From: Thermodesulfobacterium commune DSM 2178
GTDB lineage: Bacteria > Desulfobacterota > Thermodesulfobacteria > Thermodesulfobacteriales > Thermodesulfobacteriaceae
DNA: 32,000 bases
Assembly: GCF_000734015.1 (NCBI RefSeq)
Contig: NZ_CP008796.1
Coordinates: 1,530,001 to 1,562,000, forward strand
Reading direction: 5' to 3'
Of this stretch, positions 14,715 through 18,491 are shown in pieces; within the stretch, counting starts at the first letter, position 1, and each line of letters begins with the position of its first letter. Under the pieces are notes generated by a model, which searched no databases, was not told the origin of the DNA, and saw nothing but the letters and a program-made list of their open reading frames with translations. The position numbers and the translations under genes were made by a program.

Positions 14715-15004
14715 ACCTACGATGGTTTTTACAGCCGAAGGTTTTTGCTGCTATAGTTTTATGGGTGCTTTTTAGCTTAAGGATCTATCCTTCAGATTTG
14801 ATAAAAACCTTATTGCATTCTGGAAGGATCTTTATAGGAAGTGGACTTTATGGTTTAGGAATTACGATTATTTTTAATGGACTATTGGCTAAATTTACTA
14901 AGAAAGGATTAAATAGAGACCAGTTTATAAAAATGGCCCTTTGGTTGGCTGTGCTTACGGCTGTAGGTGCAAGCCTTGAGTTTTATTTTGGGATGGGGAA
15001 ATGA
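14711..15004 (+). CDS. Small integral membrane protein (about 3 TM), unknown function
   Basis: 97 aa and hydrophobic. ATGA overlaps at both ends couple it to DUF364 upstream and murI downstream. Confidence 0.55.
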   Translation: MNLRWFLQPKVFAAIVLWVLFSLRIYPSDLIKTLLHSGRIFIGSGLYGLGITIIFNGLLAKFTKKGLNRDQFIKMALWLAVLTAVGASLEFYFGMGK

Positions 15005-15804
15005 TAGGGGTATTTGACTCAGGTTTGGGTGGACTTACGGTAGTCAAAGAGCTTTTACTTAAGGTAAAAGGTTACAAGATTGTTTATTTTGGAGACACAG
15101 CAAGAACTCCTTATGGGACTAAAAGCCCTGAAACAGTTACCAGATATGCCGTTGAAAACACGAGGTTTTTACTAAAGCTTGGAGCTAAGATAATAGTAGT
15201 TGCCTGCCATACCGCTTCAAGCACCGCTATGCCGGTATTAAAGCAGACTTTTCCAGAGATTCCTTTTTTTGAGGTAGTTACCCCTTCTATGGAAAAGGCC
15301 CTAAGGCTTACCAAAAGTAAAAAAATAGGACTTATTGGCACCAGGACAACCGTAGAAAGCAGGGTATATGACAGGCTTTTTGCAGAAAAAGACCCGGAGA
15401 TAAAGCTTTATTCAAACCCAGCTCCCTTACTAGTGCCACTTATAGAAGAAGGGTGGCTTAAAAAACCTGAAACCAGAAGGATAGTAAAAAAATACCTGAT
15501 CCCTCTTAAAATGAGAGGCATAGATACTTTAATCTTGGGGTGTACCCATTATCCTATCATTAAAAAACTTATCCAGGAAAAGGCAGGGAAAAGAATAAAA
15601 CTGGTAGATCCATCAGAGGAGGTAGCTTCTAACGTAGCTAATTTTATAGAGGAACATCCAGAGGTTAAGACAACCTTAGAGACAAACGGGTTAGAAATTT
15701 TTGTTTCCGATTTAACCGCCTATTTTGGAAAGATTGCCGAGATGTTTTTAGGAAGAAAGGTAGAGTTGAAAAAAGTTTCTATAGAAGAGATGGTCAACTT
15801 TTAA
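15001..15804 (+). CDS. murI: Glutamate racemase
   Basis: IGVFDSGLGGLTV, YFGDTARTPYG, VVACHTAS and LGCTHYP are canonical MurI motifs. Confidence 0.93.
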   Translation: MIGVFDSGLGGLTVVKELLLKVKGYKIVYFGDTARTPYGTKSPETVTRYAVENTRFLLKLGAKIIVVACHTASSTAMPVLKQTFPEIPFFEVVTPSMEKALRLTKSKKIGLIGTRTTVESRVYDRLFAEKDPEIKLYSNPAPLLVPLIEEGWLKKPETRRIVKKYLIPLKMRGIDTLILGCTHYPIIKKLIQEKAGKRIKLVDPSEEVASNVANFIEEHPEVKTTLETNGLEIFVSDLTAYFGKIAEMFLGRKVELKKVSIEEMVNF

Positions 15805-15834
15805 AAAAAGGAGTCAACTATCAGGAAATAGGAT

Positions 15835-17043
15835 TTAAGCATGAGAACCCTCGCAAATAGAAATAAAATTTTTAGAGTTAAAACTCAAGACAGGATTAAA
15901 ATAACTTCCTTTCTTGCAAAGTCCATAGATCACCCTTATGAGCTTATTCATCACCGCTACCATTGCTTTCTTATAGCTCTTAAACTCCTTCTTCTTGCGC
16001 AAAAAATACTCCCTGAAATAAGAATTCCAGGTTACTACTCCTACTGCCATCTGAAAAAGAATGTTTCTGAGCCAGGGACTTCCTTGTTTAGAAATACTCA
16101 TGTTTATCCTAAATTTTTCCGACTGTTTTATTACTGGGTCAGTGCCAGCATATTTTATAAGTTTTTTGGCATTGGAAAATCTGTTCACATCCTTAACTTC
16201 AGCGATAAAATGAACTGCAAGTTTTGGAGAAATTCCCCTGATAGAGGAAATGAGCTTTATTTGTTGGTTTTGGTCGTGATCTATTTCTTCAAGGAGCATA
16301 TTTTCAAGTTTTTGGATTCTTGGTTCGAGGAAGAGTATTTTTTCAATATAGAAGATGAGGGTTTGGGAAAGATAGGGGTTGTGGATGCCGATAGATTTTT
16401 TAGCAAGGTTTATGATCTCTTGAGGGGAGAAGGAGGGTTTTCTTGCTTTGAAGGTAGAATTGATGATAGAGGCGATATCATCTGTAGAAGCCTTTTTGAG
16501 GTAGGAAGCACCGGGGTATTTTAGGAGTATGTTGAGAAAGGAAAAGGAGAAGATGTTTAAGTGTTTTTCAACTTCGGGGAAGAGAACAGAGAGGGCGTAT
16601 TTGATTTGTGTTTTGGCAAAAGATCATTCTTTTTTGAGTTTTTGGATAAGGCGGGAGAGGTTTCTCAGGTGATGGTCAGGTGGGAGAGGGTTAAGGAATT
16701 GAGGGTTAGCTTGAGCAAAAAGAGCAAGGAGTTTAGCGTCTTTGGTATCAGACTTAGAGGGGTTGTTTGCGGAGAGGAACTGGAAGAACCTGTGAAGGAT
16801 TTTTGGGTTGATAACAAAAGCTTGAATATCATTAGCAAGGAGAAAGTGATAAAGTGGGAGGAAGAATCTTCCAGTAGATTCCATGACTACGATAGGTTTA
16901 GGGTATTGTTTAAGGATGGAGAGAAGCTGAGAGAAACCTTCTTGAGACATAGGGAGGTGTTTGGAGAGGATAAAGGATTGTTGATGGAGGACAGCGATAT
17001 TAAAAGTGTCTTTAGAGACATCAATACCGACGAAGTAATTCAT
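15835..17043 (-). pseudogene. IS110-family DEDD transposase/recombinase interrupted by a single in-frame TGA (16626-16624)
   Basis: Track ORFs 16624..17043 (MNYFVGIDVSKDTF ... VVMESTG, the N-terminal DEDD/RuvC-like domain) and 15835..16299 (SIRGISPKLAVHFIAEVKDVNRFSNAKKLIKYAGTDP, the C-terminal domain) are in the same frame. I translated the 108 codons between them and found no other stop (SFAKTQIKYALSVLFPEVEKHL...). The total is 402 codons. An AGGAGGTG RBS is present. Confidence 0.85.
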
Positions 17044-17270
17044 GGGAGCACCTCCTTGTGTGGTGTTGTTGGTATAGTAAAAGTCCCTCGCTCCATCCTC
17101 CCATGTGGCAGAGGCTTAGGAAGCCTAACCAACTTATTGGGGGAGTTGAGGGACAGGGGGACAGACTCCTCTCGAGGCTTTTAAGCCTAAGAGTTATGGA
17201 GTCCTTGTCCCTCTTTATTTTGTTGTTGTCCATATTATTACTATACAACGCAACATATATTAAGCAAAAA
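17044..17270 (-). ncRNA. Candidate IS110-type bridge RNA / structured 5' non-coding end of the IS
   Basis: This stretch is locally GC-rich in an AT-rich genome and non-coding. There is a hairpin AGGCTT-AGG-AAGCCT (17112-17126). A long imperfect hairpin spans 17150-17211, with GGGACA/TGTCCC, GACTCC/GGAGTC and inner AGGCT/AGCCT pairings. It lies immediately upstream of the recombinase start, where IS110-subgroup bridge RNAs lie. Confidence 0.4.
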
Positions 17271-17297
17271 CTAACATAAAAATTGCAGGAGAGAAAG

Positions 17298-18491
17298 ATG
17301 AGTTATCTTGCAGACCTTGGAGAAATTTATCTTGCTCCTAACTATGAAAGAGAACCTATCATTTTTGTTAGAGGTGAAGGTACAAGACTTTTTACAGATA
17401 AAGGAGAAGAATATTTAGACTTTACTGCCGGGATTGCTGTTTGTAATTTAGGACATGCCCACCCTCAACTTGTTCAGGTTTTAAAAGAACAAGCCGAATG
17501 TTTATGGCATACTTCAAACCTTTATTACACCGAACCTCAGGTAAGGCTTGCCAAAAAGTTGGTAGAACTATCCTTTGGAGATAAGGTTTTTTTTGCAAAT
17601 AGTGGTACTGAGGCAGTTGAAGCAGCCTTAAAACTCGCCAGACGCTGGGCCTATCAAAATTTTGGGGGCTCTAAATATAAGTTTATTTCCTTAAAAAATT
17701 CTTTTCATGGAAGAACCTTAGGTTCTCTTTCGGTAACAGGCCAGCCTAAATATTGGGAAGGCTTTGAACCTTTAGTCCCAGGGGTGGTTTTTGTTGAGCC
17801 TAACGATTTGCAGGAACTAAAAGAGACTTTTGATGAAACCGTCTGTGCGATAATCATGGAACCTATCCAGGGAGAAGGTGGAGTTTATCCGTTAACCCAA
17901 GAGTTTATTGCCCAGGCTAAAGAGCTTTGCCAAAAATATTCGGCTTTATTGATCTTTGATGAAATCCAGACTGGGTTAGGAAGGACAGGAAGGTTGTTTG
18001 CTTATGAACATTATGGGATAGAGCCTGATGTGATGTGTCTTGCCAAGGCCTTAGCCAACGGACTTCCTCTCTCAGCCATGATTGCTAAAAAAGAAGTGAT
18101 TGATTTTTTAACCCCTGGTAGCCATGCCTCTACCTTTGGAGGAAATCCTATAGCCTGTGCTGTAGGCTGTAAAGTGGTTGAGATGATCTCAGACCCAACC
18201 TTTCTTGAAGAGGTAGAACTTAAAGGTAAAGTTATCATGGAAAAATTAAGAGCTTATCAGGAAGAATATCCAGGTCTTATCAAACAGGTAAGAGGAAAAG
18301 GTCTGTTGATAGGTATTGAGTTTGCTATCGAAGTAAAACCTATCTATCAAGAACTTTTAAAAAGAAGGATTTTAACCACTACCCCAAAACCTAATGTATT
18401 AAGACTTTCCCCCCCTCTTATCATCAATTACCGAGAGATAGACTACTTTATGATCCAGCTTGAAGAAATCTTAAAAGATATTAAAACCTAA
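17298..18491 (+). CDS. argD: Acetylornithine aminotransferase (class III PLP aminotransferase)
   Basis: LAPNYEREPIIFVRGEGTRLFTDKGEEYLDFTAGIAVCNLGHAHP, SGTEAVEAALKLAR, DEIQTGLGRTG and the LAKALANG lysine region match the family. ATG 17298 with a GGAGAG RBS is preferred over the track TTG 17283. Confidence 0.85.
   Translation: MSYLADLGEIYLAPNYEREPIIFVRGEGTRLFTDKGEEYLDFTAGIAVCNLGHAHPQLVQVLKEQAECLWHTSNLYYTEPQVRLAKKLVELSFGDKVFFANSGTEAVEAALKLARRWAYQNFGGSKYKFISLKNSFHGRTLGSLSVTGQPKYWEGFEPLVPGVVFVEPNDLQELKETFDETVCAIIMEPIQGEGGVYPLTQEFIAQAKELCQKYSALLIFDEIQTGLGRTGRLFAYEHYGIEPDVMCLAKALANGLPLSAMIAKKEVIDFLTPGSHASTFGGNPIACAVGCKVVEMISDPTFLEEVELKGKVIMEKLRAYQEEYPGLIKQVRGKGLLIGIEFAIEVKPIYQELLKRRILTTTPKPNVLRLSPPLIINYREIDYFMIQLEEILKDIKT

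What the first reader, a model, noticed from the sequence alone, without database searches (positions are those of the whole stretch)
17044..17270. GC-rich, hairpin-dense 5' non-coding end of the IS110 element: candidate bridge RNA
About 230 bp lie between the recombinase start (17043) and the argD RBS. This stretch is much more GC-rich than any other intergenic region here and is non-coding; the overlapping track ORFs are antisense or low-complexity artefacts. It folds on paper into a short hairpin (AGGCTT/AAGCCT, 17112-17126) and a long multi-segment hairpin (17150-17211). In the long hairpin GGGACA pairs with TGTCCC and GACTCC with GGAGTC, and AGGCT pairs with AGCCT around a TTTA loop. Established knowledge: IS110-subgroup elements encode, in the long non-coding end upstream of the recombinase, a structured bridge RNA. 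Its two internal loops base-pair with target and donor DNA (shown in 2024 for IS621). Architecture and position fit, and the 3' non-coding end is under 30 bp as expected for the IS110 subgroup. If it is real, the loop sequences would predict the insertion specificity of this thermophile element.
Basis: partly seen in the sequence, partly recalled or inferred. Interest (0 to 1): 0.6.

Follow-up and report, generated by a model that had tools for sequence, protein, structure and literature searches.

The report
Bridge RNA of a ribosome-site-targeting IS110
The GC-rich hairpin region is a genuine two-loop guide ("bridge") RNA gene of an IS110-family jumping gene that aims itself at ribosome-binding sites; it is a new member of a known kind, and this particular copy is damaged.

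Summary

**The element.** Window 15809-17291 (minus strand) is a 1,483-bp IS110-family element. It has eight further copies or fragments in this genome, which appears to be a Thermodesulfobacterium on the evidence of the closest relatives' record titles. Its left end at 17083-17211 encodes two stem-loops with internal loops.

**Evidence for a bridge RNA.**
- Across 17 orthologues, 20 of 33 base pairs show compensatory changes.
- The first loop is hypervariable. It obeys the IS621 guide rules: the 5' side equals the left target and the 3' side (...AGGAG) is complementary to CTCCT.
- The second loop is conserved. It matches the element's own joined ends: AGUUGGUU to AGTTGA-CT, and a split right guide that covaries with the left-end sequence.

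**Target.** The target is the Shine-Dalgarno sequence. 24 of 26 insertions lie 4-12 nt from a start codon, always antisense to the gene. This is the same target choice as IS900.

**State of the window copy.** It is defective. The recombinase gene has an in-frame TGA, and the donor loop has a 2-nt insertion in a linker of otherwise fixed length. Its argD site matches the guides only at CTCCT.

**Side finding.** A stop-free antisense frame spans the whole element, bridge RNA included, in five lineages. The recombinase genes almost completely lack the codons TTA, CTA and TCA, which points to selection for that open frame.

**Not tested.** Expression of the RNA and its activity were not tested.

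The parts
15809..17291 (-). Whole IS110-family element, 1,483 bp counting CTCCT at both junctions
   Evidence: Eight other copies or fragments in the genome begin and end here.
17287..17291 (-). Left junction CTCCT (AGGAG on the + strand). It holds the CT core and now serves as the argD Shine-Dalgarno, 6 nt before ATG 17298.
15809..15813 (-). Right junction CTCCT (core plus the first three bases of the right target)
15814..15822 (-). Right-end terminus GATAGTTGA, the left donor (LD). TTGACT, a -35-like hexamer, spans the LD-core boundary.
   Evidence: Conserved in all type A and type B elements; promoter role inferred only (not above chance).
17083..17211 (-). Bridge RNA core: two stem-loops, each with an internal loop
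   Evidence: Fold z = -4.5; CM R1 scores 152.9 bits; covariation.
17158..17211 (-). Target-binding loop module: outer stem GGGACA/UGUCCC and inner stem GACUCC/GGAGUC
   Evidence: Outer helix has 5 of 6 pairs with double changes; internal-loop sequences are hypervariable among orthologues.
17189..17197 (-). Left target guide AUAACUCUU
   Evidence: 6 of 7 non-core positions match the L004 site aaaactc|CT. In the same position, a type B element matches its flank 9 of 9. Permutation P = 0.003.
17175..17188 (-). Hairpin of the target loop, AGGCU-UAAA-AGCCU
   Evidence: 3 of 5 pairs show compensatory changes.
17166..17174 (-). Right target guide CGAGAGGAG. AGGAG pairs with top-strand CTCCT, so the guide mimics a Shine-Dalgarno sequence.
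   Evidence: GGAG is kept in nearly all elements, and the L004 site CTCCTCTCG matches 9 of 9.
17164..17165 (-). Handshake guide UC of the target loop, complementary to donor positions 6-7 (GA)
   Evidence: By analogy with IS621 nt 81-82; seen in the sequence only.
17083..17154 (-). Donor-binding loop module: outer stem GUCCCUC/GAGGGAC and inner stem CUCC/GGAG
   Evidence: Helices 5 and 6 have 9 of 11 pairs with double changes, for example CACC/GGUG and UCCA/UGGA.
17139..17141 (-). CCC run where every other copy has one C: a 2-nt insertion that lengthens a linker which is 5 nt in every orthologue
17127..17134 (-). Left donor guide AGUUGGUU
   Evidence: Equals AGTTGA+CT of the right end with two wobble positions. 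Chance at a fixed position is about 1e-4 (own calculation). Conserved in all elements.
17112..17126 (-). Hairpin of the donor loop, AGGCU-UCCUA-AGCCU
   Evidence: helix 7.
17108..17110 (-). Distal part of the right donor guide (UGC), pairing with G13 C14 A15 of the left end (CTCCT-GCA)
   Evidence: Covaries: A13 with U, G15 with C.
17096..17102 (-). Proximal right donor guide GGGAG (pairs C8-T12) followed by handshake GA
   Evidence: GGAGGAU is kept in nearly all elements with a complete donor loop.
15835..17043 (-). IS110-family recombinase gene (DEDD_Tnp_IS110 + Transposase_20), interrupted by TGA at 16624-16626
15841..17184 (+). Antisense frame in phase with the recombinase codons. It is broken in this copy (one stop at 16522-16524 between the two listed ORFs, and a frameshift from the CC insertion). 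It is 457-480 codons and uninterrupted in orthologues.

Best explanation
Window 17083-17211 (minus strand) is the bridge-RNA gene of an IS110-group insertion sequence.

**How it works (by the IS621 rules).** The RNA is made from the left end, upstream of the recombinase gene, and has two internal-loop modules.
- Loop 1, the target-binding loop. [quoted passage not shown] Its 3' strand CGAGAGGAG pairs with top-strand CT-CCT-(CTCG). The target is therefore the antisense of a Shine-Dalgarno sequence, and the right guide is itself a Shine-Dalgarno mimic.
- Loop 2, the donor-binding loop. It recognises the joined ends of the excised element, ...AGTTGA-CT-CCTGCA.... The left guide is AGUUGGUU. The right guide is split into UGC, a 5-nt bulge, and GGGAG.
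- Two-nucleotide handshake guides (UC and GA) are complementary to the non-cognate partner.
- A DEDD/Ser recombinase homologous to IS621's then exchanges strands at the CT core. The element lands in the ribosome-binding site of a gene, antisense to it, and rebuilds AGGAG at its left end for that gene.

**Shown.** The element boundaries, the covarying structure, the guide-DNA matches and covariation, the recombinase homology and the Shine-Dalgarno target bias.

**Inferred.** Transcription, protein binding and activity. The window copy itself is probably non-autonomous, with a nonsense codon in the recombinase gene and a +2 nt linker in the donor loop. Two intact copies elsewhere in the genome could supply the recombinase.
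For: - **Boundaries and copies.**
- **Recombinase.** Pfam DEDD_Tnp_IS110 + Transposase_20. Hit to the IS621 recombinase 8wt6 at E = 7e-20, with the GID, E-TG, DT-DA and SK motifs aligned.
- **Fold.** z = -4.5.
- **Distribution.** CM R1 finds the structure in 19 of 61 genomes of the class.
- **Covariation.** 20 of 33 pairs have changes on both sides. 90.7% of cells are paired against 78% in shuffles and 35-58% in slid controls.
- **Loop variability.** Loop 1 is hypervariable and loop 2 is conserved.
- **Left target guide.**
  - The L004 site matches 6 of 7 non-core positions plus 9 of 9 for the right guide.
  - It scores 10 of 11, above every one of the 6,351 unoccupied CTCCT sites in the genome (best 9 of 11).
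  - A type B element in G013 has LTG AUUUUACCU against flank ATTTTAC|CT, 9 of 9.
  - L062 matches 6 of 7 non-core positions.
- **Permutation tests.** Cognate against non-cognate pairs: P = 0.003 and 0.02 for the left guide, 0.03 for the right guide.
- **Donor covariation.** RD13 G/A goes with RNA C/U, and RD15 A/G with U/C (L020, L062, L069, L078, L083).
- **Guide rules.** Taken from PMC11208160 and PMC11208158.
Against: - There is no expression or binding data.
- Rfam 15 has no matching family, and the published bridge-RNA models were not available.
- No conserved 5' stem-loop was seen upstream of loop 1.
- The conserved GGAG of the right target guide is also predicted to pair with CUCC in the free RNA. 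One compensatory change, in L022, supports that stem.
- Most natural insertion sites, the window's own included, match the variable guide positions no better than the genome background. The preferences at target positions 7 and 13 could simply reflect the host Shine-Dalgarno consensus.
- The covariation counts come from a model-fitted alignment of related sequences.
- The promoter scan was not above chance.
- The window copy carries a TGA and a +2 nt linker.
Confidence: 0.9

Rival explanations
1. The hairpins are only a structured 5' leader of the recombinase mRNA. In this reading they act as a translational or read-through barrier, as in many insertion sequences, and have no guide function.
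For: The region lies directly upstream of the recombinase RBS. SL2 is followed by UUUU in some copies. There is no expression data.
Against: - A leader would not need a hypervariable first internal loop with conserved, compensated stems.
- It would not need loop strands that match the target and the element's own ends, with covariation.
- The U-tract is not conserved in L004, L005, G016 or G020.
- The recombinase is homologous to IS621's, which uses a bridge RNA for recombination.
Confidence: 0.04
2. The conservation of this stretch is due to the antisense ORF. The stretch would encode the C-terminal 70 or so residues of a hed-like protein rather than an RNA.
For: The in-phase antisense frame runs through the whole left end, to 15-20 nt from its tip, in five type A lineages.
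Against: - Changes come in base-paired couples, which a protein constraint does not predict.
- The guide loops are hypervariable, so the peptide is not conserved there.
- Synonymous sites in the overlapped recombinase gene are saturated, so the antisense protein sequence is not constrained.
- The antisense product has no Pfam hit.
- The two functions are not exclusive. An open frame can overlap the RNA gene.
Confidence: 0.03
3. In this window the feature is a dead relic. The family has a bridge RNA, but this copy's RNA no longer works.
For: - There is a TGA at 16624-16626 in the recombinase gene.
- There is a 2-nt insertion in the donor-loop linker, which is 5 nt in every other copy and orthologue.
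- The antisense frame is broken.
- The insertion site matches the guides only at CTCCT.
Against: - The copy is 99% identical to the two intact copies.
- All stems and all guide strands are intact.
- The CM score of 152.9 bits is close to the 161 bits of the intact copies.
- The recombinase could be supplied in trans from L002 or L003.
Confidence: 0.5

Closest known systems
IS621 bridge RNA and bridge recombinase (IS110 group; Durrant et al. 2024, PMC11208160; Hiraizumi et al. 2024, PMC11208158; PDB 8wt6)
   Same: - The RNA is encoded in the left end, upstream of a DEDD/Ser recombinase.
- The order is target loop, then donor loop.
- The 9-nt left target guide and 8-nt left donor guide lie just 5' of each hairpin and are identical to the top strand.
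- The right guides end in AG opposite a CT core, followed by 2-nt handshake guides.
- The right donor guide is discontiguous.
- There is a bulged A in the 5' strand of each basal stem.
   Different: - The recombinases are only distantly related: two local matches, E = 7e-20.
- The target is the Shine-Dalgarno sequence, not a REP element.
- The bulge in the right donor guide is 5 nt, not 2.
- GGAG of the right target guide is predicted to be sequestered in a stem with CUCC.
- No 5' stem-loop was found.
- The first core position of both left guides is U (a wobble) or G.
- Target and donor share five bases (CTCCT), not two.
IS900 of Mycobacterium avium subsp. paratuberculosis and its hed ORF (Doran et al. 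1997, cited in PMC8141618)
   Same: It is an IS110-family element that inserts at translation initiation signals in one orientation. It carries an ORF on the complementary strand that spans the whole element.
   Different: - IS900 sits in a GC-rich genome, where long antisense ORFs arise easily. Here the genome is 37% GC and the stop avoidance is codon-specific (TTA 1 of 176, TCA 0 of 143).
- The antisense frame here has its own ATG, which hed is said to lack.
The resemblance rests on the literature.
IS1111-group seekRNA elements
   Same: RNA-guided members of the IS110 family, with guides for both target and donor.
   Different: Their guide RNA lies 3' of the recombinase gene. Here it lies 5', and the 3' non-coding end is only 26 nt.

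Membership tests
IS110-group bridge RNA (IS621 type) | Encoded in the left end, same strand, upstream of an IS110-family DEDD/Ser recombinase | tested here: met
IS110-group bridge RNA (IS621 type) | Two successive stem-loops, each with an internal loop, conserved by covariation | tested here: met
   20 of 33 pairs have changes on both sides. 90.7% of cells are paired against 78% in shuffles and 35-58% in slid controls. The alignment is model-fitted.
IS110-group bridge RNA (IS621 type) | Loop 1: the 5' strand equals the top strand of left target plus core, and the 3' strand is complementary to core plus right target | tested here: met
   - L004 site: 6 of 7 non-core positions and 9 of 9.
- Type B element: 9 of 9.
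- Permutation P = 0.003 to 0.03.
- The window's own site matches only at CTCCT.
IS110-group bridge RNA (IS621 type) | Loop 2: guides match the element's own RE-core-LE junction | tested here: met
   AGUUGGUU against AGTTGA-CT. GGGAG pairs with CTCCT. UGC pairs with GCA, with covariation at RD13 and RD15.
IS110-group bridge RNA (IS621 type) | CT core dinucleotide present at both junctions, with no target duplication beyond the core | tested here: met
   CTCCT is at both ends of all copies. In type B the crossover is confined to CTCC.
IS110-group bridge RNA (IS621 type) | Handshake guides complementary to positions 6-7 of the non-cognate DNA | tested here: inconclusive
   UC against donor GA, and GA against target tc. 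The tc preference may instead reflect the host AGGAGG consensus.
IS110-group bridge RNA (IS621 type) | 5' stem-loop preceding the target loop | tested here: not met
   No conserved hairpin lies between the element tip and 17211. Hiraizumi et al. report only a slight loss of activity when the IS621 5' stem-loop is deleted.
IS110-group bridge RNA (IS621 type) | Sigma-70 promoter split across the RE-LE junction of the circle | tested here: inconclusive
   The right end finishes in TTGACT, and TAGTTT lies 16 nt into the left end. This scores only 8 of 12, and the scan was not above chance.
IS110-group bridge RNA (IS621 type) | Match to published bridge-RNA covariance models | not testable with these tools
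   Rfam 15 gives nothing at E up to 10. The models of Durrant et al. are not on hand.
IS110-group bridge RNA (IS621 type) | The RNA is expressed, binds the recombinase and directs recombination | not testable with these tools
   Needs RNA sequencing and biochemistry.
IS900-like organisation (hed) | Orientation-specific insertion at translation initiation signals | tested here: met
   24 of 26 insertions have CAT 4-12 nt upstream of CTCCT, against 14.8% of all CTCCT sites.
IS900-like organisation (hed) | Antisense ORF spanning the whole element | tested here: met
   The frame is 457-480 codons in L005, G020, G041, G051 and G060. It is broken in the window copy and absent in type B elements.

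The most novel reading that the evidence does not exclude
This IS lineage may be built to be 'transparent' to the gene it hits.
- Its bridge RNA carries a Shine-Dalgarno mimic as right guide, so the element lands in ribosome-binding sites, antisense to the gene.
- Its left tip rebuilds AGGAG for that gene.
- The whole element, including the complement of the bridge RNA, is kept free of stop codons in one antisense frame. That frame runs from an ATG 27-30 nt inside the right end to a TAA 9-11 nt before the rebuilt AGGAG.
- Host transcripts could therefore be translated straight through the element and re-initiate at the host gene. Only the openness of the frame would be selected, not a protein.

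This would give a mechanistic meaning to the long-disputed 'hed' ORF of IS900-type elements and tie it to RNA-guided targeting.
Probability: 0.4. Interest if true: 0.7.

Novelty: new member of a known kind. Interest (0 to 1): 0.5.

Why it matters
- **Extends bridge-RNA mapping to a thermophile.** The guides are assigned nucleotide by nucleotide in a Thermodesulfobacterium-type genome. The predicted cognate site is 5'-ATAACTC-CT-CCT-CTCG-3'.
- **Candidate enzyme for study.** Two intact recombinase genes in the same genome (copies L002 and L003) may encode a heat-stable bridge recombinase.
- **Explains a target choice.** The RNA guides account for why IS900-like elements hit translation initiation signals: the right guide is a Shine-Dalgarno mimic. 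In the library searched, no paper holds both 'IS900' and 'bridge RNA'.
- **Raises a testable idea.** The codon-specific avoidance of antisense stops in a 37% GC genome is stronger evidence for a selected whole-element antisense frame than GC-rich mycobacteria can offer. It suggests a read-through mechanism that can be tested.

Tried and rejected
- **Rfam 15.** A scan of 15000-18000 at E up to 10 gave only chance hits (PsrR1, chrB-a and others) and no bridge-RNA family.
- **RNAalifold on a raw MAFFT alignment.** It recovered SL1 but mis-drew SL2. I replaced it with a hand-set structure and a covariance model.
- **Alternative stem CUCCCA/UGGGAG in the donor loop.**
  - It appears in the minimum-energy fold, and a few changes are compatible with it.
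  - The U-A to A-U swap in G016 and G020 (CACC/GGUG), and UCCA/UGGA in type B, support the CUCC/GGAG inner stem instead.
  - I treat the alternative as a possible second conformation only.
- **TGA as programmed recoding.**
  - TGA sits in a 12-nt variant patch (E*SF in place of the consensus ELSEA).
  - The patch is shared by four copies that otherwise differ by 1-15%.
  - Two copies and all orthologues have a sense codon there.
  - I read it as a defect spread by gene conversion or by mobilisation in trans.
- **Promoter scan.** Nothing above chance.
- **Pfam on the antisense product.** No hit.
- **Constraint on the antisense protein sequence.** Not found. Identical-codon frequencies at conserved residues equal those expected from codon usage.
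- **Protein-pattern scan of genome contigs.** It returned only five loci. It served mainly to name the genus.

Full report
**1. What is there**

The minus strand of 15835-17043 encodes a 402-codon IS110-family recombinase with one in-frame TGA. It has Pfam domains DEDD_Tnp_IS110 and Transposase_20.

The window lies in a single-contig genome of 1.76 Mb and 37% GC. Record titles of the closest relatives name the genus Thermodesulfobacterium.

The element recurs eight more times in this genome, as copies of 81-99% identity and as fragments. Aligning the copies with their flanks fixes the ends. Read in the sense of the recombinase, they are flank|CTCCT|GCAATTTTTATG... on the left and ...GATAGTTGA|CTCCT|flank on the right. 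That is window 17291 down to 15809.

It is the 248-nt left end.

**2. The observation**

- The region folds far better than shuffles, z = -4.5.
- The structured core is 53% GC.

**3. Structure**

BLAST and a covariance model (R1) found homologous left ends in 19 of the 61 genomes of the class. These include:
- a multi-copy element in G020 with 13 copies;
- one in G041 with 6 copies;
- a distant 'type B' subfamily, whose recombinase is about 34% identical (G013 with four copies, also G026, G009, G001, G044).

On 17 distinct sequences:
- 20 of 33 proposed pairs show changes on both sides.
- 90.7% of cells are paired, against 78% in shuffles (0 of 500 as high) and 35-58% when partners are slid.
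- This alignment is fitted to the model, which favours the structure. However, whole helices are replaced in type B. The outer stem of SL2 is GCCUGCUU/AAGCAGGC instead of GUCCCUC/GAGGGAC, and the inner stem is UCCA/UGGA or ACCA/UGGU instead of CUCC/GGAG.

The architecture is two modules. Each has a basal stem with a bulged A-rich dinucleotide, an inner 4-6 bp stem, an internal loop and a terminal hairpin.

**4. Guides**

The rules come from Durrant et al. and Hiraizumi et al.:
- The 5' strand of each loop equals the top strand of the left half-site plus core.
- The 3' strand is complementary to the core plus the right half-site, and ends opposite the core.
- The next two nucleotides are handshake guides.

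*Loop 1 (17158-17211).* It is hypervariable between orthologues while its stems are kept.
- In the window type the strands are AUAACUCUU and CGAGAGGAG.
- Copy L004 sits in aaaactc-CT-CCT-ctcg. That matches 6 of 7 non-core left positions and 9 of 9 right.
- Scored against all 6,351 unoccupied CTCCT sites of the genome, this site (10 of 11) beats every one. The best unoccupied site scores 9, and only two sites reach that.
- In type B of G013 the 5' strand AUUUUACCU equals the flank ATTTTAC-CT exactly. The base next to GGAG switches from A to U together with the target base, T to A.
- In G009, L062 matches 6 of 7 non-core positions.
- Permuting guides among 12 element types gives P = 0.003 (type-weighted) and 0.02 (copy-weighted) for the left guide, and 0.03 for the right guide.

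*Loop 2 (17083-17154).* It is conserved.
- AGUUGGUU, directly 5' of the hairpin, equals AGTTGA-CT of the right end with two wobble-compatible transitions. By my own calculation the chance at a fixed position is about 1e-4.
- GGGAG pairs with C8-T12.
- The three bases after the hairpin (UGC) pair with G13-C14-A15 of the left end and covary with it. A13 goes with U in type B. G15 goes with C in L020, L069, L078 and L083. A15 goes with U in L062.
- This split guide has a 5-nt bulge. It parallels the discontiguous right donor guide of IS621.
- The handshake dinucleotides UC (loop 1) and GA (loop 2) are complementary to donor GA and to the common target tc.

The recombinase aligns with IS621's (8wt6, E = 7e-20) through the catalytic motifs.

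**5. Target**

- In 24 of 26 independent insertions (G000, G020, G041), a reverse-complemented ATG lies 4-12 nt upstream of CTCCT. Only 14.8% of all CTCCT sites in the genome have this.
- The element therefore sits in Shine-Dalgarno sequences, always antisense to the gene. Its left tip restores AGGAG for that gene. Here that is argD: AGGAG at 17287-17291 and ATG at 17298.
- This is the target choice reported for IS900 (PMC8141618, citing Doran et al. 1997).
- Outside L004, the variable guide positions match natural sites no better than the genome background. The window's own site matches only at CTCCT.
- Targeting and post-insertion selection cannot be separated with these data.

**6. State of the window copy**

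- The recombinase gene has a TGA inside a 12-nt variant patch. Four copies share the patch, and the two intact copies and all orthologues lack it.
- The donor loop has CCC where all others have C. This lengthens a linker that is 5 nt in every orthologue.
- The copy is probably non-autonomous. Whether its RNA still works is open.

**7. Antisense frame (side finding)**

- The plus-strand frame in phase with the recombinase codons is uninterrupted for 457-480 codons in L005, G020, G041, G051 and G060. It runs from an ATG 27-30 nt inside the right end, through the complement of the bridge RNA, to a TAA 15-20 nt from the left tip.
- In four orthologous recombinase genes the three codons that would give antisense stops are almost absent. 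TTA is 1 of 176 Leu codons (genome 34%), CTA is 1 of 176 (7%) and TCA is 0 of 143 Ser codons (16%). Other NNA codons are used normally.
- By the genome's codon usage, the chance that a gene lacks all three codons is about 1e-13 to 1e-14.
- Synonymous sites between lineages are saturated. What is kept is openness, not a protein sequence. There is no Pfam hit.
- Type B lacks the feature.
- I propose translation-coupled read-through into the host gene. That is inference only.

**8. Verdict**

This is a genuine bridge RNA gene, a new member of the IS110-group kind. It has an IS900-like target logic that the guides explain. The copy in the window is damaged. Expression and activity remain untested.

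Noticed in passing
window 16618-16629 (TGA at 16624-16626): The in-frame TGA lies in a 12-nt variant patch: GAA-TGA-TCT-TTT-GCC in place of GAA-CTC-TCT-GAA-GCT. Four copies share the patch (window, L004, L005, L006) although they differ by 1-15% elsewhere. L005 is otherwise an intact 402-codon frame at 84% identity. This looks like gene conversion between copies, or TGA copies mobilised in trans.
   Followed up: partly
window 15841-17184 (+), and L005, L027, L026, L057, L060: A whole-element antisense frame in phase with the recombinase codons. The codons TTA, CTA and TCA are specifically avoided in a 37% GC genome. Synonymous sites are saturated, so only openness is kept. The frame ends at a TAA 9-11 nt before the AGGAG that serves the host gene.
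   Followed up: partly
G013 loci L016, L029, L037, L076 (about 11 CM hits in that genome): Miniature elements of about 280-330 bp keep the left end, a bridge-RNA-like region and the right end (...AATAGTTGACTCCT) but have no recombinase gene. G013 has no full-length type A recombinase, only the 34%-identical type B. These are MITE-like derivatives that carry their own guide RNA.
   Followed up: partly
L093 (G020, murI-argD junction); G000 genome positions 727393, 887722, 1204026, 1730646: The last 15-17 nt of the left end (CTCCTGCAATTTTTA) occur alone next to several genes, mostly beside start codons. In G020 the empty argD site reads ...TAAAAATTGCAGGAG-aaaagaa-ATG, with the upstream gene's stop codon in the TAA. 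This is what a TAAAAA-microhomology deletion of an element inserted at the same site would leave. It suggests repeated hits on the argD ribosome-binding site and a characteristic footprint.
   Followed up: partly
L083-L086 (G013, type B element): Three of the four copies lie inside a repeated palindromic intergenic unit (CACAGRCA...TGYCTGTG followed by TTTCA). The left guide matches the flank at 8-9 of 9 positions. So a relative of the Shine-Dalgarno-targeting element targets REP-like repeats.
   Followed up: no
L015/L058 (G039): An 8-nt duplication (UCUGUCCC) lies between the two loop modules. In L029 and L037 a single UGUCCC(UC) is shared by both modules. The spacer between the target and donor loops therefore varies in this family.
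   Followed up: no
window 15001-15804 and 17298 onward: The upstream gene ends at TAA 15802-15804, only 4 nt before the AGGAG that was the argD ribosome-binding site. The element therefore split a tightly packed gene pair. An earlier scan note calls the upstream gene murI.
   Followed up: no
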